The notes under the pieces are model-generated. The model was given only the letters and a program-made list of their open reading frames with translations. It had not been told where the DNA came from and made no database searches. Below, one piece after another: positions 49,152-64,000 of a stretch of 64,000 nucleotides of DNA (positions are counted from its first letter, which is position 1; each line of letters begins with the position of its first letter). Source of the stretch: a bacterium (GTDB lineage: Bacteria > Zhuqueibacterota > Zhuqueibacteria > Residuimicrobiales > Krinioviventaceae); contig OY843751.1 in NCBI GenBank assembly GCA_963693055.1, forward strand, positions 3,776,001 through 3,840,000, in the 5' to 3' direction. Position numbers and translations under genes: made by a program.

Positions 49152-49365
49152 ACTCCCTCCTTTTCAGTTAAACCACTAGATATTATAAACTGCATCTTTT
49201 TAAAAATGGATTTAAAAATCAGGTATCCCCTTTTTTCCACCCATAGAATAAAGTTACAAAATCCTGACTCATAATGCAAGATTTATAAAAATCCCTATTT
49301 TTCAGATTTTGATAAAAAGATAGATGGAGATTCCCCCCCCTTAAAATGCGTATCCTCTATCTTTT

Positions 49366-49487
49366 TTCTCGTTCGCGAACTCTGACCTGGAACGATCTTT
49401 TAATTGTCGGCCCCAAGGCAGAGCCTTGGAACCAGAATAAAATCCAAACCTGTAATACAAAAATGATTTGCATATATGAGCCATTTT
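49366..49487. repeat. Degenerate REP/REPIN-like element, right copy (module order B-A)
   Basis: B'=TTCTCGTTCG...GATCTTTTAATT...CCAAGGC-AGA-GCCTTGG (49366-49435); A'=ATAAAATCCAAACCTGTAATACAAAAATGATTTG...CCATTTT (49437-49487). Confidence 0.75.
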
Positions 49488-49534
49488 TAATATTATTAGC
49501 TTTCCCCTATTACATATTTCAGGACCAGACTATC

Positions 49535-52500
49535 ATGAATGAACATTTGAACCTGTATTTAACAAACATCAAAAAACGATATCAATCCGGCATTTCAACA
49601 GAGCACAGCTATAGAGGTGACCTGCAAACATTGATTGAAGCGCTAGTACCTGGTGTATTGGCAACCAACGAACCCACCCGTATTGCTTGCGGTGCGCCGG
49701 ACCTGATTATAACCCGCAAACAAATCCCCATAGGCTATATTGAAGCCAAAGATATTGGCAAACCGCTTGATAGTAAAGAATTCAAATCTCAATTTGACAG
49801 ATACCGCAAATCCCTCCCCAATTTGATAATAACCGATTATCTAGATTTCTGGTTATTTATCAATGGCGAACTGGTAACTACTGTACAAATTGGTTATGTA
49901 AGGGATAAAAAACTCTTTATCGAAACTGATAAACTGGACCGCTTTATAGACATAATGCAGGAATTTTGCACCCGTGAAGGCCAAACTATAACCTCTGCAT
50001 CAAAACTGTCAAAGATGATGGCGGCAAAGGCACGTTTATTGTCTCAGGTAATTGAAAACGCTTTAAACAGTGACGAAGAAAACAAACAGGACAGCTCACT
50101 CAAGGCGCAATTAAAGGCATTTCAAGACGTGCTGATTCATGACATTAACTCCAAAGAATTTGCAGATATTTACGCGCAAACTATTGCGTACGGCATGTTT
50201 GCCGCGCGCTTGCATGACCCCACACTGGAAGACTTTAGCAGACAAGAGGCCGCTGAACTAATACCCAAATCCAACCCCTTTTTGCGAAAACTGTTTCAAT
50301 ACATTGCCGGCTATGATCTGGATGACCGTATTAAATGGATTGTTGACGCACTTGCGGATATTTTCAGGGCAACAGATGTTGCAGCGCTGCTGAAAAATTT
50401 TGGCAAAACCACTCAGCAAAATGATCCCATGATCCATTTTTACGAGACGTTCCTGTCCGAATATGATCCCAAATTGCGTAAAAGCCGCGGTGTGTGGTAT
50501 ACTCCGGAACCGGTGGTAAACTTTATTGTAAGAGCGGTTGACGATATTTTAAAAACAGAATTTAACCTGCCGCAGGGACTTGCAGACACTTCTAAAACCA
50601 CCATTGAAGTAGACACGGATGTTAAAGATAAGCGCTCTTCTACCGGATACAAACGTGAAAAAGTAGAGGTGCACAAGGTACAGATACTGGACCCCGCCGC
50701 CGGTACGGGTACGTTTCTTGCCGAGGTCATTAAACAGATCTATAAAAAGTTTGAGGGCCAGCAGGGCATCTGGAGCAATTATGTGGATGACCACCTTATA
50801 CCCCGTGTGAATGGATTTGAACTGCTGATGGCCTCTTATGCTATGGCACATTTAAAACTGGAACTGCTGTTAAAAGAAACCGGGTATGTGGCTAAAAAAG
50901 AACAAAGATTACGGGTATTTCTCACCAATTCACTGGAAGAGCACCACCCCGATACCGGTACACTGTTTGCCAACTGGCTCTCTACCGAAGCCAACGAAGC
51001 CAATTATATCAAACGCGATACCCCGGTGATGGTGGTTTTGGGAAACCCGCCGTATAGTGGAGAAAGCCAAAACAAAGGTGACTGGATTATGCACCTGATG
51101 CAAGATTATAAAAAAGAACCTGGTGGTAAAGAAAAACTAAAGGAAAAAAATCCAAAGTGGCTAAATGATGATTATGTAAAGTTTATAAGATACAGTCAAT
51201 ACTTTATTGAAAAAAATGGAGAAGGTATTCTAGCATTTATCAATCCACATGGATTTTTGGACAATCCAACCTTTAGAGGGATGCGTTGGAATTTATTAAA
51301 AGCCTATGATACAATTTATACTATTGATCTTCATGGAAATAGTAAAAAAAAGGAAATTTCTCCAAATGGTTCCCCAGATGTAAATATTTTTGATATACAA
51401 CAAGGTGTCTCAATTAATATATTCATAAAAACAGGAAAGAAAAAACCAAATGAATTAGCAAAAATTTATCATAAGGATCTGTATGGGGAAAGAGATTTTA
51501 AATATAACTATTTATGGCAAAATTCATTAAAAACCATACTTTTTCAGGCATTACAACATAAAGAACCTATGTACTTTATGACAAAAAAAGATTTAAAAAC
51601 TGAAACAATCTATAGAAATGGATTCTCCATTTATAATCTTTTCAAACTATGTAGTGTTGGAATTGTTACTGCTAGGGATAAATTCACAATACACGATACT
51701 CAAAAAGAAGTTGAAGAAACAATACGAGAATTTCAAAAACTTGCAGATGAAGAAGCACGGGAAAAATTTAAATTAGGAAAAGATGTTAGAGATTGGAAAG
51801 TAGAATATGCTAGAAAAGATTTAACAACAAATTACCCTAAAAAAGGGAAATTTGTTAAAATAGCTTATCGTCCATTTGAAACTAAGTGGACTTTTTACAC
51901 GGGAAAATCAAAAGGATTTCATTGTTATCCTAGGAACGATATAATGAAACATTTCTTAATTAAAGAAAACATTGGTTTAGTATTCAGCAAACAAATTAAA
52001 GCTTTTAATAATTATCAACATTGCTTTATTGTAAAAAGTATTTTTGAATCGACAATTGTGTCAAATAAAACAAGTGAAATATCATATGGTTTCCCTTTAT
52101 TTCGATATGAAACAAATAATAATGAACTTTTTGGTACAGATAAATCAGACAACTTTAATAAAAACATTCTAGAGGAATTTCAAAATAGAATAAAACTAGA
52201 TTATGAAATAAATAAAACAATAAAAAATAATACTTTTACTCCTTTAGATATTCTTGACTATATCTATGCCGTTCTTCACTCCCCCGCCTATCGCGAAAAG
52301 TATAAAGAATTTTTGAAAATTGATTTCCCCCGTGTGCCCTACCCAAAAGACAAAGATACGTTTTGGGCGCTGGTCAAGCTGGGTAGTGTATTACGTGGTC
52401 TGCATTTAATGGAATCTCCTGTTTTAGATAAATTTATTACCGGGTATCCGGTTGACGGCAGCAACACGGTCACGCGCCGTATAACTCGAAAAGATTATGA

Positions 52501-52741
52501 ACTGGATGAACAATCTCAATCAGGCCGGGTTTGGATCAATGATGAACAATATTTTGAAGGTGTTCCGCTTTTGGCGTGGGAGTTTTACATTGGCGGTTAC
52601 CAACCGGCTCAGAAATGGCTCAAAGACAGACACGGCAGAACGTTGACCTTTGATGACATACAACATTATCAAAAGATCATAGTCGCCCTGACAGAAACCC
52701 ATCGCATAATGCAGGAAATTGACAAGATAGATTTTATGTAA
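49535..52741 (+). CDS. Single-chain restriction-modification enzyme (type IIG-like: PD-(D/E)xK nuclease, N6-adenine MTase, type ISP/LlaBIII-like specificity domain; no helicase)
   Basis: GAPD...YIEAK; GVWYTP; ILDPAAGTGTFL (motif I); GNPPY (motif IV); DYIYAVLHSPAYR...IDFPRVP; IGGYQPAQKWLKDR. Start set at ATG 49535 because the upstream ORF extension lies in the repeat. Confidence 0.9.
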   Translation: MNEHLNLYLTNIKKRYQSGISTEHSYRGDLQTLIEALVPGVLATNEPTRIACGAPDLIITRKQIPIGYIEAKDIGKPLDSKEFKSQFDRYRKSLPNLIITDYLDFWLFINGELVTTVQIGYVRDKKLFIETDKLDRFIDIMQEFCTREGQTITSASKLSKMMAAKARLLSQVIENALNSDEENKQDSSLKAQLKAFQDVLIHDINSKEFADIYAQTIAYGMFAARLHDPTLEDFSRQEAAELIPKSNPFLRKLFQYIAGYDLDDRIKWIVDALADIFRATDVAALLKNFGKTTQQNDPMIHFYETFLSEYDPKLRKSRGVWYTPEPVVNFIVRAVDDILKTEFNLPQGLADTSKTTIEVDTDVKDKRSSTGYKREKVEVHKVQILDPAAGTGTFLAEVIKQIYKKFEGQQGIWSNYVDDHLIPRVNGFELLMASYAMAHLKLELLLKETGYVAKKEQRLRVFLTNSLEEHHPDTGTLFANWLSTEANEANYIKRDTPVMVVLGNPPYSGESQNKGDWIMHLMQDYKKEPGGKEKLKEKNPKWLNDDYVKFIRYSQYFIEKNGEGILAFINPHGFLDNPTFRGMRWNLLKAYDTIYTIDLHGNSKKKEISPNGSPDVNIFDIQQGVSINIFIKTGKKKPNELAKIYHKDLYGERDFKYNYLWQNSLKTILFQALQHKEPMYFMTKKDLKTETIYRNGFSIYNLFKLCSVGIVTARDKFTIHDTQKEVEETIREFQKLADEEAREKFKLGKDVRDWKVEYARKDLTTNYPKKGKFVKIAYRPFETKWTFYTGKSKGFHCYPRNDIMKHFLIKENIGLVFSKQIKAFNNYQHCFIVKSIFESTIVSNKTSEISYGFPLFRYETNNNELFGTDKSDNFNKNILEEFQNRIKLDYEINKTIKNNTFTPLDILDYIYAVLHSPAYREKYKEFLKIDFPRVPYPKDKDTFWALVKLGSVLRGLHLMESPVLDKFITGYPVDGSNTVTRRITRKDYELDEQSQSGRVWINDEQYFEGVPLLAWEFYIGGYQPAQKWLKDRHGRTLTFDDIQHYQKIIVALTETHRIMQEIDKIDFM

Positions 52742-52840
52742 TTCATATACCAAACTCTTTTGGTTCAAGTATTCAATTATTTTAAAAAAGTCACTATTCA
52801 TTCACAAATACGATACGACTAAAACAGACATGGAGACGCT

Positions 52841-53962
52841 ATGATTAACATTAATGACTTTATTATTGAAAAATACTATTCACTTTTTAAAGAATTCATC
52901 AAATCCAAAGATGACAAAGAATTTGATTCATTTGCAAATTCAAATTATATAAAAAAACAAGAATTTTATAAATATGAACTTTTAGATCATGCTCACAAGA
53001 CGCTTGACATTGAAAATTTTGATATAGAAAGTGGACAATTAATCAATAAAATAATTGAATTAATTGAAGATCCCAATAACAATCTTGCATGGAACGACAG
53101 ACAGCACGCTAAACCTCACAACATTTTATTTGAAATTCATAAAAACCGATCAAAGAAAAATACTTTAGAACAATTACTCTATAATTTTTTCAATAATCAT
53201 CAAGATGATGAAATTGTGTTTAATAAACTGGTTAAAGAAATTGGAAAAAAATACAGCGTACTTGCCTATCTGTTTTTCATCAAAGATCCAAATAAATATC
53301 TGCCCATTGCACCCAGAAATTTTGACAAGGCTTTTGTGAAATTAAAAATTGATTTTGCAACAAGTAACAAGTGTTCCTGGGACAATTATACAACTTTTAT
53401 TGAAATACTAGTCCAAATTCAAGCATTTCTTAACACCAAACTTGATGAGAATGTTTCATTGGTTGATGCACATTCTTTTTTATGGATTTTAGTTAAACAA
53501 ATGGAATATGATGGAATTGATCTGGATAACCAATCTAAATCAGCGATTGATAAATTCAACAATCTCCCCCAAAAAGATAGAGAAACTGTAACAAAATCAA
53601 GAGTAGGGCAAGGAAAATTTCGTCTGGATGTTATTAAATACTGGGAAAATTGTGCAGTGACCCATTGCCCCGAAGAAAAACTATTGATTGCGTCGCATAT
53701 TAAACCATGGAACGCTTGCGATCCGCTTGAAGCAATGGACCCATTTAACGGTATTTTACTTTCCCCCAATATCGATAAAGCTTTTGACAAGGGTTATATC
53801 TCTTTTAACGACAAAGGGTCAATCCTTATCTCAAAAGAACATTCAAATGACCTGCAAATTCTTGGGATAAATACTAACATGAAACTTGGTAAACTCGCCC
53901 CCAAGCATGAAAAATACTTGCAATATCACAGACAACATATCTTTAAAAAAGAAAATATTTAA
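52841..53962 (+). CDS. HNH endonuclease with helical N-terminal domain (putative restriction/defence nuclease)
   Basis: RVGQGKFR, CAVT, LIASHIKPW, NGILLSPNIDKAFDKGYISF, YLQYHR; very AT-rich. Confidence 0.88.
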   Translation: MININDFIIEKYYSLFKEFIKSKDDKEFDSFANSNYIKKQEFYKYELLDHAHKTLDIENFDIESGQLINKIIELIEDPNNNLAWNDRQHAKPHNILFEIHKNRSKKNTLEQLLYNFFNNHQDDEIVFNKLVKEIGKKYSVLAYLFFIKDPNKYLPIAPRNFDKAFVKLKIDFATSNKCSWDNYTTFIEILVQIQAFLNTKLDENVSLVDAHSFLWILVKQMEYDGIDLDNQSKSAIDKFNNLPQKDRETVTKSRVGQGKFRLDVIKYWENCAVTHCPEEKLLIASHIKPWNACDPLEAMDPFNGILLSPNIDKAFDKGYISFNDKGSILISKEHSNDLQILGINTNMKLGKLAPKHEKYLQYHRQHIFKKENI

Positions 53963-54015: not shown

Positions 54016-56628
54016 TTAACTACTCTCTCCTGCCAGTGTAACCTCTACCTTGTTCTTTGCGGTTACATTACCGTTCATATCCTCGACTTTGACTACCAGC
54101 TCGTATGTGCCGGGTTTGACATTACCCAGATCCAGATTGACATACACCGGCTCGTCCCGCGAGGCACCCTGGTACTCAAATGACGTACCCGTAATACCCT
54201 TGTCCCGTCTCATGATCGTATTGAACAATCCGTGCAAAACGGTAGGAGGTTCATCAATACCAATATTTTGTATTGTACAAGTCACACGATACTTTGTCTG
54301 GTCATTTTGTCCGTAAAGCAGGTTATAGATTTCAAAATAGAGCCCTACCATCTGCCCCTTGGAAAAAGCATTAAACATATGAGGATAATAATAAACCTCA
54401 CCTTTTTTAAATTTCTCGCCTTGACCTTCGCCGCCTATTTCTGCGGAAAGTAAAATATCACTGATTTCCAGTTGGTTGTTGCTGTAATCTTTGATCTTTA
54501 ACGTATCACGAAAGACAGCACGACGTTTGGAGACCTGGTCATAGACCTGCATCTCGTAATTATAAGTTGCAGGATCAAGATCAAAGCGTTCCACATCCAC
54601 AATATTGCTCTTTGCCCAGCGATTCATATCCATTTGTACATCAAGAATGGTATTTTCGTTAACGCGTTCAACTTCGTTCCAGTTGCTGTCATAAAAATTG
54701 TAATAATTGGCGAGTTTTATTATGCTTAAACCATGCGTTGTATCCAGCTGCACATTTTGTCCATCTACACTGTAATACAACTCGGTTTCAGTTTTGCCGT
54801 CGTCTCCCTTGAAACTGAGATAAGTAAAAGGAACGGTCATGGGGTCTTCAGCAAATTGATATTTACTGGATTCGGTCTGCAATGCAGCTTTAACTGATTC
54901 TATTGATTCTTCTTTGATTGTATTGGTATACTGTTGAATTACGCTTGCTACCGGCTGCATACTATTAAATGATTCTTCACCCAGGCGTTGATAAATGGGA
55001 TCCAGAAACTCGCGATTCGCAACAGTATAGGGTACGGCTTCAATAATCCAGCCGCTTTTACCGGTATATTTCTTGAAATGGAATGTCATTACATCGTGAT
55101 CATCTGTGGCATAATACTGCCAGGAAATATTCATGGGCATATTGTGAAAAAAGCCATTAGACGCAAGCGATTCGCCATTAAAGGGTTGAGGAACTTTGAA
55201 ATGACGACTCGCGGTAATCATATTTCCATCTACACCGGAACCCGACGAGGTAACGCCGGTTGCCTCTGTCATGCTGGTATATTGCGTACCGCCAAAACCG
55301 CTTGTACCCTGGTTGCCCAATTCCGCTTTTTCATTGAGGTAGGGTTGACCATTAACAACTGTATTTGCAGCAGCAGAAGGATGATAATAAACGGGAATTC
55401 CATCACCGGAAGTGACTTTATTATCGGGAGCGCCATGACGCATAAAAATCACACCCATATCATCAAGCTGCCGGTCACGTGGTAAGGCAACAATATTACA
55501 ATATTCTCGTAACAGCTTGTCACCTTCAATATTGAATTGAGAATAGGGATGCATGGTAGAGTGAACCATATACATCTTGTCTATATCATCTTGTGAGAAA
55601 TAACGGATAAAGTATTTATGCGCAAAATCCAAACGATCATAATACTCGGCAATAAACTCGTTATTCGATGTACTCAGATTGGGATCACGCTTGTTCCAAA
55701 ACCGTTTATAAAATGCGAACAAATCAAACAGGTCCGTTTTTTGATACTCGGCATATTCATCATTATCCATCAAATAACACACTTCATTAAACAGAGTATT
55801 AATAGAGACACTGTCTTTTAAAGCCTTTAAAGCTGTCCAATAATAATTTTCAGCAATTTTGGGGCGATCGAGTTGGAAATAGTTTTTAGCGCTTAGCAGG
55901 TTGATATCAAATTGTGAAACATCAGGGAAATTTTGGCGCATTGCATCCAAACGTTTCAGGCTTTCTTTAAATTTATCCTGATAAAACTCCATCTTTGCCA
56001 TTCCCAACTGAAGCTCGTAATACTCGGGATTGTCTTTTACCAGCTTTTCAAAAATGGATAAACAATCATCATATTTCTGATAAATGATTGAAATATCAAT
56101 TAACGATTCGATCAATCTTGAATTATCAGGATTTTTCTTGATACCATCCTCTAACGCACCAATAGCTTCACCAACCCATTCCACCTCTACATGCAATTTG
56201 GCAATTTCAAGATAAGCATCAATAAGGTGCTCGTCACGTCGAACAGCTTTTTTCAAATTATCCAGCGCTTTGAGATTACCGTTTTCCATGTACTTGTATG
56301 TCATACCGATCTGATAATACGCCATTGCGTAATTTTTATCATAACGGATGGCACGTTCAAATTTATCTATAGCGTCATCAGGTTCACCCTGGGCACGCTT
56401 TAAAAGTCCCATTCCATACCAAGCCTGGGGCAGCTTTTTGTTCTTGTTGAGCAGAGACTGCAATACAGTTTCAGCTTTATTATAATCCTGGTTTTCAATA
56501 AAATTCAGGGCTTGTTTATAGTCACTTTTCCAGGCTGTATCAGATTCGTTTTGAGCAAGTAGAGCAATAGAGAAAACCATAACAAGAGCAAAAATTAAAA
56601 ACACATTAAATCTTTTTAATTCATACAT
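54016..56628 (-). CDS. TPR plus GWxTD-domain secreted protein with C-terminal Ig-like domains
   Basis: N-terminal TPRs; FWNKRDPN.ST..NE...EYYDRL.FA..YF and DDMGVIFMRHGAPD; ISDILL, LYFEIYNL, PGTYELVVKVED. Confidence 0.8.
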   Translation of the reverse strand: MYELKRFNVFLIFALVMVFSIALLAQNESDTAWKSDYKQALNFIENQDYNKAETVLQSLLNKNKKLPQAWYGMGLLKRAQGEPDDAIDKFERAIRYDKNYAMAYYQIGMTYKYMENGNLKALDNLKKAVRRDEHLIDAYLEIAKLHVEVEWVGEAIGALEDGIKKNPDNSRLIESLIDISIIYQKYDDCLSIFEKLVKDNPEYYELQLGMAKMEFYQDKFKESLKRLDAMRQNFPDVSQFDINLLSAKNYFQLDRPKIAENYYWTALKALKDSVSINTLFNEVCYLMDNDEYAEYQKTDLFDLFAFYKRFWNKRDPNLSTSNNEFIAEYYDRLDFAHKYFIRYFSQDDIDKMYMVHSTMHPYSQFNIEGDKLLREYCNIVALPRDRQLDDMGVIFMRHGAPDNKVTSGDGIPVYYHPSAAANTVVNGQPYLNEKAELGNQGTSGFGGTQYTSMTEATGVTSSGSGVDGNMITASRHFKVPQPFNGESLASNGFFHNMPMNISWQYYATDDHDVMTFHFKKYTGKSGWIIEAVPYTVANREFLDPIYQRLGEESFNSMQPVASVIQQYTNTIKEESIESVKAALQTESSKYQFAEDPMTVPFTYLSFKGDDGKTETELYYSVDGQNVQLDTTHGLSIIKLANYYNFYDSNWNEVERVNENTILDVQMDMNRWAKSNIVDVERFDLDPATYNYEMQVYDQVSKRRAVFRDTLKIKDYSNNQLEISDILLSAEIGGEGQGEKFKKGEVYYYPHMFNAFSKGQMVGLYFEIYNLLYGQNDQTKYRVTCTIQNIGIDEPPTVLHGLFNTIMRRDKGITGTSFEYQGASRDEPVYVNLDLGNVKPGTYELVVKVEDMNGNVTAKNKVEVTLAGESS

Positions 56629-56966: not shown

Positions 56967-57872
56967 ATGGGGTATTCAATGGAAAGTAAGGCTGGTCAAG
57001 AAATTCGTGCGTTTCATATCTTTCTAGTTATTTTATACATACTCTCTTTTATTTCAATCATATACTTTTTTTATAAAGGCTGGGATTATTATTCAACCCC
57101 CTTTCCTGAAAGACCCCGCCATGATGGTTACACACTCTTGAAACCCGGTGGAAATTACGGACATGGATTTGGCATTATTGGGTCCCTCATGATGCTTATT
57201 ATGTTATTGTACTCTATACGCAAGCGTGCACAAATATTTTACAAGTTGGGAAATATTACCAAATGGCTGGATATACATATCTATCTTGGCATTTTTGGTC
57301 CTTTGTTAATTATACTGCACAGTTCTTTCAAAGTAAACGGCCTGGTTGCAATCAGCTTTTACTCTATGCTGGCGGTTGCGCTTAGTGGTATAATTGGTCG
57401 TTATCTGTATTTACAAATCCCCCGTAACATACAAGGGCATGAGCTATCATTACTTGAACTCAAAAACATGGATGCTCAACTCTCTAAAAAATTAAAAAAT
57501 GAGTTTGATTTTTCAGATGACATGATTTCAAAACTGGAGCATTTGACCAAAAGCAGCCACCTCGAATCCCAAAATTCAATGGTTTTTCTGGTTAAATTGT
57601 TATTGGATGATATTTACAGAGCCAGAGTTTTTCGCACATTTAAAAAAGAAAATGCTTTTATAAAGAAATTGCCACCCAAACAGGTAAAAGATCTTTTAAA
57701 AATAGCTCGCAATAAAGTGATTCTTCACCGTAGAATTCTTGCATTGAATAAAATACAACAGCTCTTTCACTATTGGCACGTTATTCATAAACCTTTTGCA
57801 ATCATTATGATTATTATCATGTTTGTTCATATTGCAATTGCAATTACATTTGGATATAAATGGATATTCTAA
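56967..57872 (+). CDS. Inner-membrane protein, putative diheme cytochrome b (ferric-reductase-like TM domain)
   Basis: About 5 TM helices; two helices each carry His pairs 14 residues apart (H-IYLGIFGPLLIIL-H and H-KPFAIIMIIIMFV-H). Start may be ATG 56979. Confidence 0.75.
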   Translation: MGYSMESKAGQEIRAFHIFLVILYILSFISIIYFFYKGWDYYSTPFPERPRHDGYTLLKPGGNYGHGFGIIGSLMMLIMLLYSIRKRAQIFYKLGNITKWLDIHIYLGIFGPLLIILHSSFKVNGLVAISFYSMLAVALSGIIGRYLYLQIPRNIQGHELSLLELKNMDAQLSKKLKNEFDFSDDMISKLEHLTKSSHLESQNSMVFLVKLLLDDIYRARVFRTFKKENAFIKKLPPKQVKDLLKIARNKVILHRRILALNKIQQLFHYWHVIHKPFAIIMIIIMFVHIAIAITFGYKWIF

Positions 57873-57873
57873 A

Positions 57874-59553
57874 ATGAAAGCACAATTCTTTGTTGTACTG
57901 ATCCTGCTTTTATCACTGCCCGCATTTGCGCAATTGTCCCCGGGAAAACTGCACCAATCCCATGCGGATCTTGAAGGTTTGGAAAACTGTTCCAATTGTC
58001 ATCAATTCAAAAGAAAAATCAGTGCTGACAATTGTCTGGATTGTCACATGATTTTAAACAATAGAATTGCATCCGGCAGGGGGCTGCATGCAAATGACGA
58101 GTATAATGAATGTGAAAAATGCCACATAGAACATCAGGGGCGAGATTATGATCTGATATACTGGCCAGATGGAAAAGACAATTTTAAACATGAGCTCACA
58201 GGCTATCATCTTGAAGGCAAGCATTCTCAGCTGAATTGCAGTCAGTGTCATCAATCCCAAAATATAACCAACAAAGCACTGTTTCTTGAAAAGAAAAAGG
58301 ATCTCAATAAAACCCTGCTGGGCCTTGATGAAGATTGCCTTTCATGCCACCATGATGAACATCGTTCCCAATTCACTCAGGAATGCATCACCTGCCATAC
58401 GATGGAAGGTTGGAAGCCTGCAAAAAAGTTTAATCATCAAAACACCCATTTTAGTTTAACCGGCAAACATCAACAAGTAGATTGTGTAAAATGCCATCCA
58501 CAAATCACCGATAATAAATACAATGCACATCCTTCTTTTTCAAAATATAGCAATCTCGAGTATCAAAATTGCATCAACTGCCATCAGGATGTGCATAATA
58601 ATAAATTTGGTTCCAATTGCGAATCCTGCCACAACACATCAGGATGGAAAACTGTGAACCATAACCAGTTTGATCACAACCGTACATCCTTCCCATTAAA
58701 AGGGAAACACATCACAACGGCTTGTGAACAGTGCCATTTACCCGGCAGACCCATTAAAATTAACAAATATGACAGGTGTGCTGATTGTCATACGGATTAC
58801 CATAAAAACCAATTCACCAAAACCGAACATATTGGCAATTGTGAACAATGCCATACCGAACAGGGCTTTACTCCATCGCTATTTACAATTGAAAAGCATA
58901 ATAACCTGGATTTCCATCTGGAAGGTAGTCACAAAGCCGTTCCGTGTATTGCCTGCCACAAAAAAATCAATACGGGCACCAGTTATGAAACCATTCAATT
59001 CCATTATCCAGATAAAAAATGCAGTTCCTGTCACAAAGATCCACATAATGGTCAAGTCAATAAATTCACCTCACAACAGGGATGTGAAGCATGCCACTCT
59101 GTTGCAAGCTGGTACACAATCAATTTTGATCACAATCAGACAAAATTCCCTCTTGAGGGTCGCCATAAAAATGTTTCATGCGCACAATGTCACGTGGAAG
59201 AGGATCTGTCAAAGAACAAGACCTATGCCTTTGTTAATCTTGTTTCAGATTGCCAGTCATGTCACAATGATGTTCATCTGGGGCAATTCCGGGAAGACCA
59301 ACTTGTAAACGGAAATAACCATACCAACTGTGATAGATGCCATACTCCCGCAAACTGGATTGCTGAAAAGTTTGAACATAATAGAGACGCCTCATTCAAA
59401 CTTGATGGTGCTCACCAGTCAGTCCCATGTAATGACTGCCATAAAGAATTATCATTAAAAGGCAACAAGTTTAGATTATATAAACCCCTGCGCTCGGATT
59501 GTAAATTCTGTCATACCCCTTCAAAAAAAACTAACGATACCAGGTCAAACTAA
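57874..59553 (+). CDS. Multiheme cytochrome c, 20 CxxCH motifs
   Basis: Signal peptide MKAQFF...AFA; 20 CxxCH counted; repeating FxH..T.F.L.G.H triheme units. Confidence 0.95.
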   Translation: MKAQFFVVLILLLSLPAFAQLSPGKLHQSHADLEGLENCSNCHQFKRKISADNCLDCHMILNNRIASGRGLHANDEYNECEKCHIEHQGRDYDLIYWPDGKDNFKHELTGYHLEGKHSQLNCSQCHQSQNITNKALFLEKKKDLNKTLLGLDEDCLSCHHDEHRSQFTQECITCHTMEGWKPAKKFNHQNTHFSLTGKHQQVDCVKCHPQITDNKYNAHPSFSKYSNLEYQNCINCHQDVHNNKFGSNCESCHNTSGWKTVNHNQFDHNRTSFPLKGKHITTACEQCHLPGRPIKINKYDRCADCHTDYHKNQFTKTEHIGNCEQCHTEQGFTPSLFTIEKHNNLDFHLEGSHKAVPCIACHKKINTGTSYETIQFHYPDKKCSSCHKDPHNGQVNKFTSQQGCEACHSVASWYTINFDHNQTKFPLEGRHKNVSCAQCHVEEDLSKNKTYAFVNLVSDCQSCHNDVHLGQFREDQLVNGNNHTNCDRCHTPANWIAEKFEHNRDASFKLDGAHQSVPCNDCHKELSLKGNKFRLYKPLRSDCKFCHTPSKKTNDTRSN

Positions 59554-61664
59554 TGAAAGCCGTATCTATGAAATATTTATTATTTCTACTTTTACTGCTG
59601 AATTCAATATTATTAGCAGTAACCAGTCCTCATGGGGATATAAAAATACCCTGCGAAACCTGTCATACTCCGGCTAACTGGCAGGTTAACAGAGAAACCT
59701 TAAAATTTGATCATAACAGCACCGGGTATCCGTTAACAGGTGTGCATAGCCAGATAGATTGCAAAGACTGCCATGAGAGTCTGGTTTTTCATCAAACTGG
59801 TGTGCAATGTATGGATTGCCATACAGATATTCACCAGGGACAGTTGGGCAAAGAATGCGAAACCTGTCATACCCCCTTAAACTGGGAAAACCGGCAGAAT
59901 ATGCTAAAAGACCATTCTCTTTTACGCTTTCCCTTGTATGGTGCACATGAACGCATTGATTGCGACGACTGTCACCATGCCGGCTTGACAGAATATGCCA
60001 ACACCCCTGTTGAATGTATCTATTGCCATGCGGATGACTATAACTCAACCCAAAATCCTGATCATAAAGAAGCACAATTCCCCACAACCTGTGATGACTG
60101 CCACCCCATACAATCTCTTACCTGGCAAACCCGTGAATTTGATCATTCATTTTACCCATTGACCGGTGCGCATCAAAATGTAACCTGTGCAGATTGCCAC
60201 CACGGTACCTATACCAACACGCCCAATACATGTTATGGATGCCATAACACAGACTATGCGGCTACTATCGATCCCAATCATCAGGCATTTGGGTTCGATA
60301 CAGACTGTTCACAATGTCACACTACTGATACATGGACCCGGACTGCGTTCGATCACTATCAAGCATCCGGCTTTGAATTGATTGGTGCGCACCAGACATT
60401 ACAATGCAGTCAATGCCACATCAACAATCAGGGAACCGGATTACAAAGAGATTGTTATGGCTGTCATTTAACAGATTACAATTCCGTCAAAGAACCTGAC
60501 CATCAACTTGGTCAATATCCTCACGAATGTACAATGTGCCACAATGTGAACAATTGGAGCCCTGCCGACTTTGATCATAACCAGACCGGATTTCCCCTTA
60601 CAGGCGCTCACCAGGCTGTTGAATGTTCGGATTGTCACGAAAATAATGTTTATGCCGGAACTCCATCGGATTGCTACTCGTGTCACGAACCGGATTTCAA
60701 GTCCGTGACAGAACCCAATCACGTCACCGGTAATTTTGATCACGTATGTACCATCTGTCATTCCACAACCACATGGACACCAGCAACCTTTGATCATAAT
60801 AATACCGGTTTTCCGCTTACCGGAGCACATACAACAGCAACATGTCTGGATTGCCATGTTAATGGATATACCAATACGCCATCAGATTGCTACTCGTGCC
60901 ACGAACCGGATTTCAAGTCCGTGACAGAGCCCAATCACGTCACCAGTAATTTTGATCATGTGTGCACTATCTGCCACTCTACAACCGCTTGGACACCCGC
61001 AACCTTTGATCATAATAATACCGGTTTTCCGCTTACCGGAGCACATACAACAGCAACATGTCTGGATTGCCATGTTAATGGATATACTAATACGCCGTCA
61101 GATTGCTATTCGTGCCACGAACCGGATTTCAAGTCCGTGACAGAGCCCAATCACGTCACCGGTAATTTTGATCACGTTTGCACTATCTGCCACTCCACAA
61201 CCGCATGGACACCAGCAACCTTTGATCATAATAATACCGGTTTTCCGCTTACCGGAGCACATACAACAGCAACATGTCTGGATTGCCATGTTAATGGATA
61301 TACCAATACACCAGCGGATTGTTTTTTCTGTCATGAAAACGAGTACAATAATACAACAGATCCCAATCATAAAGCTTCTCAATTCCCGGTTACCTGTCAG
61401 GATTGTCACAATACCAACAACTGGGAGCAAACCACCTGGGACCATGATGCCCGCTATTTCCCCATTTATTCCGGCGAGCATCGCGGAGAATGGGATGCAT
61501 GTTCTGATTGTCACACCAACGCATCAAATTATACCGTATTTGAATGTATCAACTGTCATGAGCATCAAAAATCTGAAATGGACAACGAACATGATGAAGT
61601 AAGAAACTATCAGTACCTGAGTACGGCTTGTTATAATTGTCACCCAAATGGGAAAGAAGATTAA
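59553..61664 (+). CDS. Multiheme cytochrome c, 28 CxxCH motifs
   Basis: Signal peptide; 28 CxxCH counted; TAATG coupling at both ends. Confidence 0.96.
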   Translation: MKAVSMKYLLFLLLLLNSILLAVTSPHGDIKIPCETCHTPANWQVNRETLKFDHNSTGYPLTGVHSQIDCKDCHESLVFHQTGVQCMDCHTDIHQGQLGKECETCHTPLNWENRQNMLKDHSLLRFPLYGAHERIDCDDCHHAGLTEYANTPVECIYCHADDYNSTQNPDHKEAQFPTTCDDCHPIQSLTWQTREFDHSFYPLTGAHQNVTCADCHHGTYTNTPNTCYGCHNTDYAATIDPNHQAFGFDTDCSQCHTTDTWTRTAFDHYQASGFELIGAHQTLQCSQCHINNQGTGLQRDCYGCHLTDYNSVKEPDHQLGQYPHECTMCHNVNNWSPADFDHNQTGFPLTGAHQAVECSDCHENNVYAGTPSDCYSCHEPDFKSVTEPNHVTGNFDHVCTICHSTTTWTPATFDHNNTGFPLTGAHTTATCLDCHVNGYTNTPSDCYSCHEPDFKSVTEPNHVTSNFDHVCTICHSTTAWTPATFDHNNTGFPLTGAHTTATCLDCHVNGYTNTPSDCYSCHEPDFKSVTEPNHVTGNFDHVCTICHSTTAWTPATFDHNNTGFPLTGAHTTATCLDCHVNGYTNTPADCFFCHENEYNNTTDPNHKASQFPVTCQDCHNTNNWEQTTWDHDARYFPIYSGEHRGEWDACSDCHTNASNYTVFECINCHEHQKSEMDNEHDEVRNYQYLSTACYNCHPNGKED
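60663..61310 (+). repeat. Intragenic tandem repeat, 3 x 216 bp (72 aa, three hemes per unit)
   Basis: Units start at 60663, 60879 and 61095; near-identical DNA encoding PSDCYSCHEPDFKSVTEPNHVTGNFDHVCTICH...CLDCHVNGYTNT. Confidence 0.97.
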
Positions 61665-62467
61665 TGAAAACAGCATTTAAAATCTTGATTTTTCTCAGTA
61701 TCTCTACAGCATTTTTTATCAATTATGTATACTCGAAAGACATACCCCACAAGCAATTGAAACTGGAATGTAACAGTTGTCACCTGACAGAAAACTGGAA
61801 TACTATTACGTTTGACCACAAGTCAACACAATTTCCACTGGATGGCAGGCACCATAACCTGGAATGCGTTGACTGCCACAATCTTGAAGATTTTTCTCAA
61901 ATCAGGATGGAATGCAAACAATGTCATCTTGATATTCACCAGGGGAAATTAACATATCCCTGTGACCAATGCCATACAACCAGTGGGTGGCAGGTCAAAG
62001 ATATTTTCAAGGTCCATGCCAATACAACATTCCCGGTACTGGGCGCGCACAGTCGGTTGGATTGCGATGCCTGCCATATATCAGAAATTGTGGGTGAATT
62101 TGCCCGCATTCAATCAGATTGTTATACCTGTCATGAACAGGATTACAAAAACACGACTGATCCCTCACACCAGGATTTTGGATTTAATCACAGATGCGAA
62201 GATTGCCACAGTATGCTCGCATGGTTTCCGGCAATGTTTGCCGAGCACGAATCCCGCTTCCCCATCTCTTCCGGAGCGCATGCAGGTGAATGGGAAAATT
62301 GCAATATCTGTCATACCAATCCCGGTAATTTCCAGATATTCAGTTGTCTCAACTGTCATGAGCATAATCAATCGAGTATGGTTGGAGAACATGACGAAAT
62401 AAGTGGATTTAGCTACAACAGTGATGCGTGTTACCGTTGTCATCATGATGGCAAAGCGGAGGATTAA
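61664..62467 (+). CDS. Decaheme cytochrome c, short paralog of the 28-heme protein
   Basis: Start MKTAFK at ATG 61664; 10 CxxCH counted; N- and C-terminal modules align with 59553..61664. Confidence 0.95.
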   Translation: MKTAFKILIFLSISTAFFINYVYSKDIPHKQLKLECNSCHLTENWNTITFDHKSTQFPLDGRHHNLECVDCHNLEDFSQIRMECKQCHLDIHQGKLTYPCDQCHTTSGWQVKDIFKVHANTTFPVLGAHSRLDCDACHISEIVGEFARIQSDCYTCHEQDYKNTTDPSHQDFGFNHRCEDCHSMLAWFPAMFAEHESRFPISSGAHAGEWENCNICHTNPGNFQIFSCLNCHEHNQSSMVGEHDEISGFSYNSDACYRCHHDGKAED

Positions 62468-62469
62468 TT

Positions 62470-64000
62470 ATGAACTTTATAAAAAATAGTATTTTCATCC
62501 TGATTTTGATTTCTATTTCGAGTATTTCCGCACAAGAATCTGCTAAAGATTTTACCATTAAATATATCTCGAATGAAAACATTTATATTGATGGCGGCAG
62601 CATAGATGGACTTGCAGTTGGAGATACAATAATCGTAATGCGTAAAAACACTCGTATTGCGGTAATGACGATTAATTACACAGCAGATCATTCAGCGGCA
62701 TGTACAATTGTATCGCAAAGCATGCAAGTTCAACCGGGAGATTTGGCAAGGCCTTTGGTGCTTCGTCAGCAGGAAAAATTCGAAACCGTGTCTTCTCCAC
62801 TGAAAACAAGAAAAACCATACTACGCCAAAAGACCCAAACAAAACAGAATGATATGAAAATCAGGGGCAGCGTTTCTTTGCAATGGTACCATTTTGAAGA
62901 CATGTCTGAAGGAAATTTCAGTTTTGATCAACCGGGTGGACGATTGAATCTAAGAATGAAGAATGTGTTTACCAAAAACCTGAATTTCAGGATCAAAACC
63001 AAAAGCCGGTATAACAAACGGATGACGCATCTAAGCGGTACTACAGCCAGAAACGAATGGCGCAACCGCATTTATACCGTCAGTCTGAGTTTTGATGATG
63101 ATAATGCAGCAATAAATTATAAACTGGGACGTATTATCTCGAACAAATTCAGCGGCATTGGTTATATTGACGGTGCTTTAATACAACACAATACAACCGA
63201 AAATTTACGATACGGTGTTTTTGCCGGTACGCAACCCCAATGGCAGTATGCCGATTTCCAGACATCCATACAAAAATATGGCGCCTATATTAATTATTTA
63301 CAAGGCCAATATGGAGGCAAGCGGTTTGAATCTACCCTGGCCGCTGCCGGAGAATATCATGGTGCTGAGGTAAGCCGCGAATTTGTCTATCTGCAAAACA
63401 GCTTTTCTTCACAACAATTTAATCTCTATAGCAGTGCAGAACTCGATGTAAACCGTGACTGGCGCAAAGATAAAAGCGGCGAAAATATATCTCTTACCAA
63501 TCTTTATCTCAACTTTTCTTATGCTATTACCCGGAGCATTACAACAGGATTAAGTTTTGACGATCGGAAAAATTATTATACATACGAAATCCGTTCTGTT
63601 GCAGACAGCCTGTTTGATGATGCCATGCGTTATGGAGCTCGCTGGAATCTGAACCTCCGTTTGCCGGGCAACTATCGGGTGTATGCTAACGCGGGTATAC
63701 GTGCCAGAGAAACCGATACGGAAAACACATATTCCGGGGCATTGGGCGTCAGTAAAAACAATATTACTGATCACAACCTGTATGTAAATTTTTATGGATC
63801 AGGATTTCAAAATTATTTTTCAACAGGATTTAATGCATCTTTAAGAATGGGCAAATACTTTAGGGCTGGGCATAATGTAAACATGAGTTATGGTAACTAT
63901 TCGTATGTGTTGAGCACAACCAATACCACCCGTTCTAACCACTGGTTACGTTTAAACGGAAATTTACAGATTTTTAGACACATCTATCTCGATGAGAATT
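62470..64000 (+). CDS. Large outer-membrane beta-barrel (porin) with N-terminal soluble domain; truncated by the window edge
   Basis: Not in the ORF track. ATG 62470 opens at least 510 codons: signal peptide, NIYIDGGSIDGLAVGD domain, then many amphipathic strands (IRGSVSLQWY, RLNLRM, YKLGRI, YGVFAG, YGAYINY, LYLNFSY, YGARWNLNLRL, FNASLRMGKYF). Confidence 0.85.
   Translation, partial: MNFIKNSIFILILISISSISAQESAKDFTIKYISNENIYIDGGSIDGLAVGDTIIVMRKNTRIAVMTINYTADHSAACTIVSQSMQVQPGDLARPLVLRQQEKFETVSSPLKTRKTILRQKTQTKQNDMKIRGSVSLQWYHFEDMSEGNFSFDQPGGRLNLRMKNVFTKNLNFRIKTKSRYNKRMTHLSGTTARNEWRNRIYTVSLSFDDDNAAINYKLGRIISNKFSGIGYIDGALIQHNTTENLRYGVFAGTQPQWQYADFQTSIQKYGAYINYLQGQYGGKRFESTLAAAGEYHGAEVSREFVYLQNSFSSQQFNLYSSAELDVNRDWRKDKSGENISLTNLYLNFSYAITRSITTGLSFDDRKNYYTYEIRSVADSLFDDAMRYGARWNLNLRLPGNYRVYANAGIRARETDTENTYSGALGVSKNNITDHNLYVNFYGSGFQNYFSTGFNASLRMGKYFRAGHNVNMSYGNYSYVLSTTNTTRSNHWLRLNGNLQIFRHIYLDEN

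What the first reader, a model, noticed from the sequence alone, without database searches (positions are those of the whole stretch)
56967..64000. Candidate trans-envelope electron conduit: diheme cytochrome b, 20-, 28- and 10-heme cytochromes, and a porin in one coupled operon
Seen: five co-oriented genes with 1-2 bp gaps or TAATG overlaps, 58 CxxCH motifs in total, signal peptides on all three cytochromes, a membrane protein with two His-x13-His helices, and a beta-barrel ORF missing from the ORF track. Established: porin-cytochrome complexes (MtrCAB of Shewanella, Pcc of Geobacter, and the genome-predicted PCC3 clusters with an inner-membrane protein) move, or are predicted to move, electrons across the outer membrane. 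Inference: this is a self-contained quinone-to-surface wire, not MtrA/MtrC-like in motif spacing, in an apparently polysaccharide-degrading FCB-lineage bacterium. It could serve metal, humic or electrode respiration, or interspecies electron transfer. I cannot tell whether this exact system has been described; PCC3 is the closest precedent I know.
Basis: partly seen in the sequence, partly recalled or inferred. Interest (0 to 1): 0.88.

Follow-up and report, generated by a model that had tools for sequence, protein, structure and literature searches.

The report
NADPH-linked heme wire through cell envelope
Six tightly packed genes encode a predicted membrane-anchored iron-sulfur flavoprotein, a membrane protein predicted to hold two hemes, three cytochromes with 58 heme-binding motifs and a predicted 22-strand outer-membrane barrel, which together likely carry electrons from cytoplasmic NADPH to the cell surface; this is a variant of the known but untested PCC3 clusters, whose flavoprotein partner seems to have been overlooked.

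Summary
In detail: five coupled genes, 58 CxxCH motifs, two W-x3-H-x13-H helices, and a barrel modelled with 22 strands and no plug. The genome has Ccm maturation genes. OXR and the heme-b protein (IMP) occur together in 150 of 166 genomes that hold either (696 searched), mostly side by side. A like gene also flanks a type PCC3 locus of Sideroxydans ES-1 (Slit_0866). IMP, the 20-heme cytochrome and the barrel are homologous to PCC3 parts. The 28- and 10-heme proteins are a different, modular outer cytochrome (1+3n hemes). Best reading (0.6): a PCC3 variant that exports electrons from cytoplasmic NADPH to the surface, like a split NOX/ferric reductase on a wire, not a quinone-fed respiratory chain. 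Direction, acceptor, binding and expression are untested. I found no paper naming OXR as a PCC3 part; one 2026 paper notes a ferredoxin-NADP+ reductase beside another porin-cytochrome group. This scan reported the same reading earlier on seven other genomes.

The parts
56967..57872 (+). IMP: 301-aa inner-membrane protein, five TM helices, predicted diheme cytochrome b (H104/H118, H274/H288), with a ~120-residue helical cytoplasmic insert between TM4 and TM5; homologous to the PCC3 inner-membrane protein
   Evidence: Hydropathy; model pLDDT 91.7; four His, S-G-x-x-G-R, K86, W270 and H271 invariant in 75 of 75 rows; 30-31% identity to proteobacterial PCC3-type IMPs
57874..59553 (+). C20: 20-heme periplasmic cytochrome c built of triheme modules; orthologue-like match to the PCC3 21/24/27-heme periplasmic cytochrome; likely takes electrons from IMP
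   Evidence: 20 CxxCH, 28 aa per heme; 20 hemes in 36 of 42 complete family members; 30-34% identity to 21-heme PCC3 proteins; shared N-terminal cap
59553..61664 (+). C28: 28-heme cytochrome c (1 + 9 triheme modules, conserved C-terminal cap); likely barrel partner / outer wire
   Evidence: 28 CxxCH; family heme counts fit 1+3n in 33 of 36; a member of this family lies directly before 33 of 35 barrels
60663..61321 (+). Tandem array of 3.1 x 216 bp inside C28: recent duplication of a whole triheme module
   Evidence: TRF 93% matches, no indels; copies differ by 10-15 nt but 1-2 aa; close relative L006 has 25 hemes in this gene
61664..62467 (+). C10: 10-heme short paralogue of C28 (1 + 3 modules, same C-terminal cap)
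   Evidence: 10 CxxCH; C-cap score 85 bits
62470..64000 (+). Outer-membrane barrel, 532 aa (ends 68 bases beyond the window): leader, small ~70-aa beta domain, linker, 22-strand barrel without plug, C-terminal Phe; remote homologue of the PCC3 porin barrel
   Evidence: AlphaFold2 on 97 sequences; fold matches are 18-24-strand outer-membrane barrels, best Z 18.3, rmsd 4.0, 272 aligned; HHalign to PCC3-type porins 94.5%, E 7.6e-8, 379 columns
64000..64000 (+). Placeholder at the window's edge for the sixth gene, OXR, which lies wholly beyond it (G000:C1:3840103-3841422; L001:11103-12422; 103-1422 bases past the window's end): 439 aa, N-terminal TM anchor, two-cluster ferredoxin domain with an invariant His in place of one Cys, circularly permuted TrxR/YpdA-like FAD/NAD(P)H body without CxxC
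   Evidence: Pfam Fer4 + Pyr_redox_2/3; YpdA model 181 bits, below its 340 cut-off; permutation seen against PDB 7A7B/7A76; H93 in 75 of 75; single copy in the genome

Best explanation
The six genes likely build one wire that carries electrons outward from cytoplasmic NADPH: flavoprotein FAD and Fe-S clusters, then two predicted b hemes across the inner membrane, then the 20-heme periplasmic cytochrome, then a 28- or 10-heme cytochrome that would thread the predicted 22-strand barrel to an outside acceptor. Shown: gene anatomy, motifs, homology to PCC3, co-inheritance of OXR with IMP and of the 1+3n cytochromes with the barrel. Predicted: folds, heme b and Fe-S binding, cytoplasmic side of OXR. 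Inferred: physical contacts, NADPH as donor, outward direction. By standard bioenergetics (own knowledge), moving electrons out of a negative-inside cell is favoured but spends membrane potential, as in NOX. The wire would then be a reductant export or redox valve (reducing Fe(III), humics or a partner cell) more than an energy-conserving respiratory chain. The acceptor is unknown.
For: OXR and IMP co-occur: both/IMP only/OXR only/neither = 72/2/2/75 of 151 genomes (family of G145), 42/4/3/351 of 400 (class of G147), 36/4/1/104 of 145 (own phylum); OXR lies within 20 kb of IMP in 71 of 76, 42 of 49 and 36 of 40 cases. The link survives rearrangement: after the barrel, directly before or after IMP, or divergent. 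OXR has one TM followed by basic residues, no Tat signal, and GGGDSA plus S-Y-R...R-x-K, read from TrxR-family knowledge as an NADPH signature. IMP keeps invariant basic residues at the predicted cytoplasmic ends of TM2 and TM4. A remote IMP homologue is fused behind cNMP and Fer4 domains and lies in a cluster type that carries another NAD(P)H flavoprotein. The 2+2 His layout is that of the ferric reductase/NOX membrane domain (He et al., PMC5566968). [quoted passage not shown] PCC3 transcripts in ES-1 fall on Fe(II) against thiosulfate (PMC8788666). Pcc porins have 18-22 predicted strands and are proposed to house cytochromes (PMC4245776).
Against: No biochemical data exist for this cluster in my calls. 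No OXR-IMP fusion was found (weak test). 26 of 97 IMP genes in the family of G145 have no OXR within 20 kb, many of them second copies. IMP has an invariant fifth His (H271) beside the cytoplasmic heme that could mark a quinone site. The one heme-b membrane protein in its fold list is the quinone-reactive superoxide oxidase CybB (Z 7.6, rmsd 3.1, 130 aligned; within the noise for helical bundles). None of the three cytochromes has a lipobox or export tag, so surface exposure rests on threading alone. Slit_0866 rose about five-fold on late magnetite against Fe-citrate (log2 +2.35 and +2.55; 4 unique peptides), which also fits an inward role. The genomes counted are kin, so the counts are not independent events.
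Confidence: 0.6

Rival explanations
1. Quinone-fed respiratory conduit (first reader; He et al. model). IMP is a quinol oxidase feeding the wire, and OXR is an accessory or loads the quinone pool through IMP.
For: Invariant H271 and W270 next to the cytoplasmic heme ligand; weak Pfam cytochrome b561 match below cut-off (22.8 vs 30.1 bits); CybB in the fold list; He et al. proposed it.
Against: It does not explain why a dedicated NADPH-type Fe-S flavoprotein lies within 20 kb of IMP in 149 of 165 OXR genes across three groups of genomes. No quinone-binding motif was tested or shown.
Confidence: 0.2
2. Inward conduit: electrons from Fe(II) minerals, metals, electrodes or partner cells run down the wire and OXR makes NADPH or reduced ferredoxin.
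For: PCC3 was found in iron oxidisers; Slit_0866 rises on late magnetite; the IMP of one CL21 copy rises when cells oxidise iron.
Against: NADP+ reduction from Fe(II) across a negative-inside membrane is uphill twice over (own knowledge). ES-1 PCC3 genes fall on Fe(II). The cluster is common in this genome's own phylum, whose named relatives are KSB1 and Calditrichota records.
Confidence: 0.08
3. Envelope-internal system: NADPH charges a periplasmic heme store or supplies reductant inside the envelope, and the barrel is an export or assembly channel rather than an insulating sleeve.
For: All three cytochromes carry plain Sec-type leaders with no lipobox; the barrel's nearest folds are generic channels and ushers; the ES-1 'extracellular' cytochrome Slit_1448 was not detected in the proteome.
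Against: The barrel has no plug, and a 1+3n cytochrome lies directly before it in 33 of 35 loci, also in a satellite pair (49 hemes + barrel) elsewhere in this genome. Wire length varies from 10 to 49 hemes, which suits reach beyond the membrane better than a fixed periplasmic job.
Confidence: 0.12

Closest known systems
PCC3 porin-cytochrome cluster (He et al. 2017, PMC5566968; Hoover et al. 2023, PMC10734462), e.g. S. lithotrophicus ES-1 Slit_0867-0870 and Slit_1446-1449
   Same: Homologous ~300-aa five-TM IMP with both W-x3-H-x13-H motifs and S-G-x-x-G; homologous ~20-heme periplasmic cytochrome; homologous barrel; 25-28 aa per heme; repeat-built cytochromes; the same OXR lies beside proteobacterial clusters.
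   Different: Outer cytochromes are a separate family built of the periplasmic-type triheme module with its own C-terminal cap, not the T/S/A/G-rich PCC3 extracellular type (23-28% vs 34-55%); two of them; barrel gene 532 aa without the long N-terminal extension (621-900 aa in the 29 PCC3-type porins aligned); OXR inside the operon; different lineage. OXR is not part of the published four-gene definition.
PCC4 and the large-decaheme PCC group with a nearby ferredoxin-NADP+ reductase (PMC5566968; PMC13264449)
   Same: Five-TM IMP with the same motifs; Fe-S and NAD(P)H flavoprotein genes next to a porin-cytochrome cluster.
   Different: 4-, 5- and 10-heme cytochromes; flavoprotein of another build (Pyr_redox + FHA + Fer2, ~780 aa) in the remote clusters seen here; IMP match only 60-80 bits.
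MtrCAB / MtoAB (Shewanella, Sideroxydans)
   Same: Cytochrome-in-barrel principle; Sec-exported cytochrome proposed to thread the barrel.
   Different: DmsE/MtrA model scores 39-46 bits against a cut-off of 192; no family match for the barrel; 22 strands against 28 predicted for MtrB (PMC4245776); no CymA-like gene and no lipoprotein cytochrome in the operon.
Geobacter Pcc (OmbB-OmaB-OmcB)
   Same: Barrel size within 18-22 predicted strands (PMC4245776).
   Different: Pcc periplasmic cytochromes have 5-14 hemes and an outer-membrane cytochrome; here 20-28 hemes, no lipobox, and an own inner-membrane module.
NOX / ferric reductase (Fre, MsrQ-type) transmembrane reductases
   Same: Two His-x13-His helices for two b hemes, with a cytoplasmic FAD/NAD(P)H partner (works-like comparison; family knowledge recalled, motif link from PMC5566968).
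   Different: Five TM helices; the flavoprotein is a separate, permuted TrxR-fold protein with its own ferredoxin domain, not an FNR-fold dehydrogenase domain; no Pfam ferric reductase match.
YpdA/Bdr bacillithiol disulfide reductase and TrxR-fold ferredoxin-NADP+ reductases (PDB 7A7B, 7A76, 3AB1)
   Same: Nearest solved relatives of OXR's FAD/NADPH body (best E 2e-45); no CxxC.
   Different: OXR is circularly permuted, carries a TM anchor and a His-ligated two-cluster ferredoxin, and scores below the YpdA cut-off (181 vs 340).

Membership tests
PCC3 | Conserved ~300-aa IMP, five TM helices, W-x3-H-x13-H on TM3 and TM5, S-G-x-x-G on TM4 | tested here: met
   definition read
PCC3 | Homology of IMP to PCC3 IMPs (not only shared motifs, which PCC4 also has) | tested here: met
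   30-31% identity; profile finds IMPs at about 150-220 bits; 39 of 40 proteobacterial loci fetched show a 21/24/27-heme cytochrome, the counts Hoover et al. give for PCC3. Named ES-1 sequences were not compared directly.
PCC3 | Periplasmic multiheme cytochrome of about 21 hemes, 22-39 aa per heme | tested here: met
   C20: 20 hemes, 27.9 aa per heme, 30-34% identity and shared N-cap
PCC3 | Outer-membrane beta-barrel porin homologous to PCC3 porins | tested here: met
   22 strands (L. cholodnii PCC3 porin has 22 predicted); HHalign 94.5%, E 7.6e-8 over 379 columns; N-terminal extension differs
PCC3 | Extracellular multiheme cytochrome of the T/S/A/G-rich PCC3 type | tested here: not met
   C28/C10 are 28% and 23% T/S/A/G; their C-cap scores under 16 bits in all proteobacterial PCC3-type cytochromes; the outer ones lack the F-x-L-x-G-x-H module (0-1 copies). 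A different family fills this place.
PCC3 | One cytochrome located outside the cell | not testable with these tools
   No localisation predictor; leaders are Sec-type without lipobox
PCC4 | Three periplasmic cytochromes with 4, 5 and 10 hemes plus PF13247 Fe-S gene | tested here: not met
   20, 28 and 10 hemes; definition read; Pfam of OXR
MtrCAB/MtoAB | DmsE/MtrA-family decaheme | tested here: not met
   TIGR03508 39-46 bits vs cut-off 192; C10 has no match
MtrCAB/MtoAB | MtrB/PioB-family porin | tested here: not met
   No Pfam family at E<=1 and no NCBIfam family at E<=0.01 for the full barrel; 22 strands vs 28 predicted
Geobacter Pcc | Porin of 18-22 predicted strands | tested here: met
   size only
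Geobacter Pcc | Sequence homology to OmbB/OmaB/OmcB | not tested
   No reference sequences were on hand
NOX/ferric reductase membrane domain | Pfam ferric reductase match | tested here: not met
   No such family at E<=0.1
NOX/ferric reductase membrane domain | Same fold | tested here: inconclusive
   Fold searches gave only generic helical matches, best Z 8.3
YpdA/Bdr | TIGR04018 score above cut-off, unpermuted soluble enzyme | tested here: not met
   181 vs 340 bits; permuted, with TM and Fer4

The most novel reading that the evidence does not exclude
A widespread bacterial NADPH-to-surface electron exporter: a split NOX-like entry module (His-ligated ferredoxin-flavoprotein plus diheme b) drives a fixed 20-heme periplasmic wire and swappable outer wires whose length is tuned in triheme steps (10 to 49 hemes), each with its own barrel. 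It would need no quinone, and it would make PCC3 of iron oxidisers an electron exporter rather than a candidate iron oxidase.
Probability: 0.45. Interest if true: 0.85.

Novelty: new variant of a known kind. Interest (0 to 1): 0.62.

Why it matters
PCC3 is counted as a candidate iron oxidase in several genome studies but has not been tested in the papers read. If its entry point is a cytoplasmic NADPH flavoprotein, the default direction is outward and quinone-independent, which changes how these clusters are read in iron oxidisers and extends them to lineages such as KSB1, Calditrichota and Ignavibacteria. The claim is directly testable in cultured PCC3 bearers and with two purified proteins. 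The stepwise, duplicable triheme wire is also a natural model for length-tunable protein conductors.

Tried and rejected
Sequencing runs: no RNA holder listed; no reads were laid. Search for an OXR-IMP fusion: one longer IMP homologue (cNMP+Fer4 fusion); seven longer proteins among the best 150 representatives had SPOR, TPR-like or unassigned extensions. PDB sequence searches found no relative of C28, C20 or IMP. Fold searches listed no MtrB or OmbB chain among the barrel's top rows and no NOX, STEAP or MsrQ chain among IMP's; this excludes nothing. ESM Atlas gave only sub-0.9 unnamed hits for the barrel's N-terminal domain. A comparison of the barrel profile with one truncated PCC3-type porin was not significant (0.9%); the profile-profile test was. 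Rex- and FNR-like boxes (recalled consensus) are absent from the upstream gap, and promoter and terminator counts are near chance. TonB-dependent transporter rejected: no plug domain, no Pfam match. He et al. Table S4 and Figure S1 are pictures; only legends could be read, so neighbouring genes drawn there were not seen. bioRxiv supplements were not read.
Full report
Observation. The five ORFs, their junctions, the 20+28+10 CxxCH motifs, the leaders and the two His-x13-His helices are as described. All 116 cysteines of the cytochromes sit in motifs, against 0.0025 motifs expected by chance. In the whole genome the barrel ends at 64068 (532 aa, C-terminal Phe), and a sixth co-oriented gene follows 34 bp later at 64103-65422, counted on from the window. 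The genome is one 6.5-Mb contig, rated 100% complete. It holds two PF01578 genes in one cluster (CcmF- and CcmC-sized, with CcmA/B-like neighbours read by eye), a third PF01578 gene and a CcmE, so heme attachment is covered. The nearest named relatives are KSB1 and Calditrichota records; KSB1 is likely but inferred.

Barrel. AlphaFold2 on 97 of the 120 listed homologues gives pLDDT 89.8, a small beta domain (28-97), a disordered linker and 22 strands (130-531) with no plug. Fold matches are generic 18-24-strand outer-membrane barrels (best Z 18.3, rmsd 4.0, 272 aligned). No Pfam or NCBIfam family matches.

Cytochromes. All three are built of a ~72-residue triheme module with at least three spare histidines, enough for bis-His ligation (inference). 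C28 holds a 3.1 x 216-bp tandem array whose copies differ by 10-15 bases but 1-2 residues; close relative L006 has 25 hemes, one module fewer. Two families separate cleanly. The C20 family has a conserved N-terminal cap and 20 hemes in 36 of 42 complete members. The C28/C10 family has a conserved C-terminal cap and 1+3n hemes in 33 of 36 (10 to 49; the three misfits have 8, 8 and 15). A C-cap cytochrome lies directly before 33 of 35 barrels; one miss has no intact neighbour and one is an over-long ORF start. This genome has a second pair, 49 hemes plus a barrel 43% identical to this one, with no IMP, C20 or OXR beside it. I infer the order IMP, C20, C-cap cytochrome, barrel.

Sixth gene (OXR). 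One TM helix, a two-cluster ferredoxin domain and a TrxR/YpdA-like FAD/NAD(P)H body. The segment that ends YpdA aligns, weakly by itself, before OXR's first dinucleotide motif, while the main match stops at YpdA residue ~270; so the body is circularly permuted. There is no CxxC. One cluster has His for the second Cys in 75 of 75 rows; the other has Cys at that place in only 38 of 75. A basic stretch after the anchor and no Tat signal put the catalytic part in the cytoplasm (prediction); NADPH preference is read from the S-Y-R...R-x-K motif (family knowledge, recalled).

Co-inheritance. I searched the same genome sets with IMP and OXR profiles. Both/IMP only/OXR only/neither: 72/2/2/75 of 151 (family of G145), 42/4/3/351 of 400 (class of G147), 36/4/1/104 of 145 (own phylum). 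OXR lies within 20 kb of IMP in 71 of 76, 42 of 49 and 36 of 40 cases; the misses are on other contigs or far away. Rows dropped before counting: in the own phylum 22 weak IMP matches (E above 1e-25), 2 gene fragments and 45 OXR paralogue matches lacking the ferredoxin part; in the class set G456 (same paralogue type) and G516 (not scored). The profiles included seeds from each group, only a few candidates per genome were scored, and kin are not independent. Gene trees of 75 paired loci share 22 of 33 and 22 of 34 supported splits, which shows joint inheritance, not contact. 26 of 97 IMP genes in the first set have no OXR nearby, many of them second copies.

Relation to PCC3. He et al. define PCC3 as porin, extracellular cytochrome, periplasmic cytochrome and a ~300-aa five-TM IMP with W-x3-H-x13-H twice and S-G-x-x-G (PMC5566968; passages and sections 15-16 read whole; supplement legends only). 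IMP meets these motifs. I fetched 40 of the 146 proteobacterial IMP places, chosen for long contigs; 39 show a 21-, 24- or 27-heme cytochrome, the counts that Hoover et al. list (PMC10734462, passages), and the 21-heme ones are 30-34% identical to C20 where C20 is the best match. Their porins align with this barrel at 94.5% (E 7.6e-8, 379 columns). Their outer cytochromes do not share the C-cap and are 34-55% T/S/A/G against 28% and 23% here. Both trees put the proteobacterial loci on their own branch (support 1.0 and 0.99). So this is a sister variant of PCC3 with a replaced outer cytochrome. [quoted passage not shown] The gene before the other ES-1 cluster, Slit_1445, is an HD phosphohydrolase. 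ES-1 PCC3 transcripts fell on Fe(II) (PMC8788666, passages and supplement rows); the 'extracellular' Slit_1448 was not detected (PMC11429942, passages); in CL21 only one IMP rose significantly with iron oxidation (10.1101/2025.02.27.639646, passages).

Mechanism. The simplest use of a dedicated, anchored NADPH/Fe-S flavoprotein beside a 2+2-His diheme b is to feed it, as in a split NOX or ferric reductase. A remote IMP homologue fused behind Fer4 domains supports a cytoplasmic Fe-S input for the wider family. Outward flow is favoured by membrane potential but spends it, and inward flow to NADP+ from Fe(II) is uphill (own knowledge). Hence a reductant export or redox valve is more likely than respiration. 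The genome has a PntB transhydrogenase subunit and a heme-copper oxidase subunit I, so it likely can make NADPH and has other sinks. Against: invariant H271 may mark a quinone site; IMP's fold search is uninformative, with CybB at Z 7.6; no cytochrome has a lipobox; no OXR-IMP fusion was found.

Novelty. Ten full-text searches and the passages read gave no description of this six-gene variant or of OXR as a PCC3 part. Subscription papers and pictured gene maps were not seen. PMC13264449 (passages and section 18) reports a ferredoxin-NADP+ reductase beside 7 of 11 large-decaheme porin-cytochrome clusters and suggests coupling, so the idea has a printed neighbour. PMC10732223 (passages) deals with PCCs in KSB1 and Planctomycetota genomes without this anatomy in the passages seen. 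PMC5317091, PMC7399161, PMC13013709, PMC13386937 and PMC4245776 were read as passages only. The IMP profile matches 1,420 clusters at 50% identity with E up to 1e-30, so the family is large. Earlier notes of this scan reached this kind of reading on seven other genomes and described the 49-heme pair in this one; they are not independent evidence, and my reading was recorded before I saw them.

Verdict. Real, conserved and well built; a new variant of the known but untested PCC3 kind. The overlooked flavoprotein is the part that a specialist would care about, because it makes donor and direction testable. Interest 0.62.

Noticed in passing
G000:C1:2004136-2009383 (L002:9136-14383, - strand): Satellite pair: 49-heme cytochrome of the C28 family (1+16x3, many near-identical modules) followed by a barrel 43% identical to the window's, with no IMP, C20 or OXR; same-genus genome G077 has it too (L112).
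   Followed up: partly
L067-L071 (own phylum), P0121: Second cluster type with a remote IMP homologue, decaheme and LVIVD-decaheme cytochromes, a ~780-aa Pyr_redox+FHA+Fer2 flavoprotein, and in L070 a cNMP+Fer4+IMP fusion; PCC4-like.
   Followed up: partly
45 matches in own phylum: A family of ~400-840-aa proteins shares OXR's permuted flavoprotein body (positions ~110-431, E 1e-74 to 1e-96) but not its anchor and ferredoxin start; contexts not examined.
   Followed up: no
L111:10022-19900: PCC3-type outer cytochrome with at least 108 CxxCH motifs (open at the locus end), above the 85 that He et al. gave as the largest.
   Followed up: no
L113-L117, L123: In one family of the own phylum OXR-IMP and the cytochrome-barrel genes are transcribed divergently, in L114 about 7.5 kb apart.
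   Followed up: partly
G000:C1:2681458-2683263; 1143326-1147643; 5904991-5912750: Other multiheme loci: a 20-heme lipoprotein-like protein of another type beside a tetraheme; 9- and 12-heme genes around a 403-aa barrel-like ORF; 7-, 19- and 6-heme genes.
   Followed up: no
window 49346-53962: Type ISP-like restriction-modification gene followed by an HNH endonuclease gene; unrelated to the operon.
   Followed up: partly
window 54016-56628 (- strand): TPR + GWxTD-domain protein divergent from the operon; beside it here and in L006, not seen next to IMP in the other loci.
   Followed up: partly
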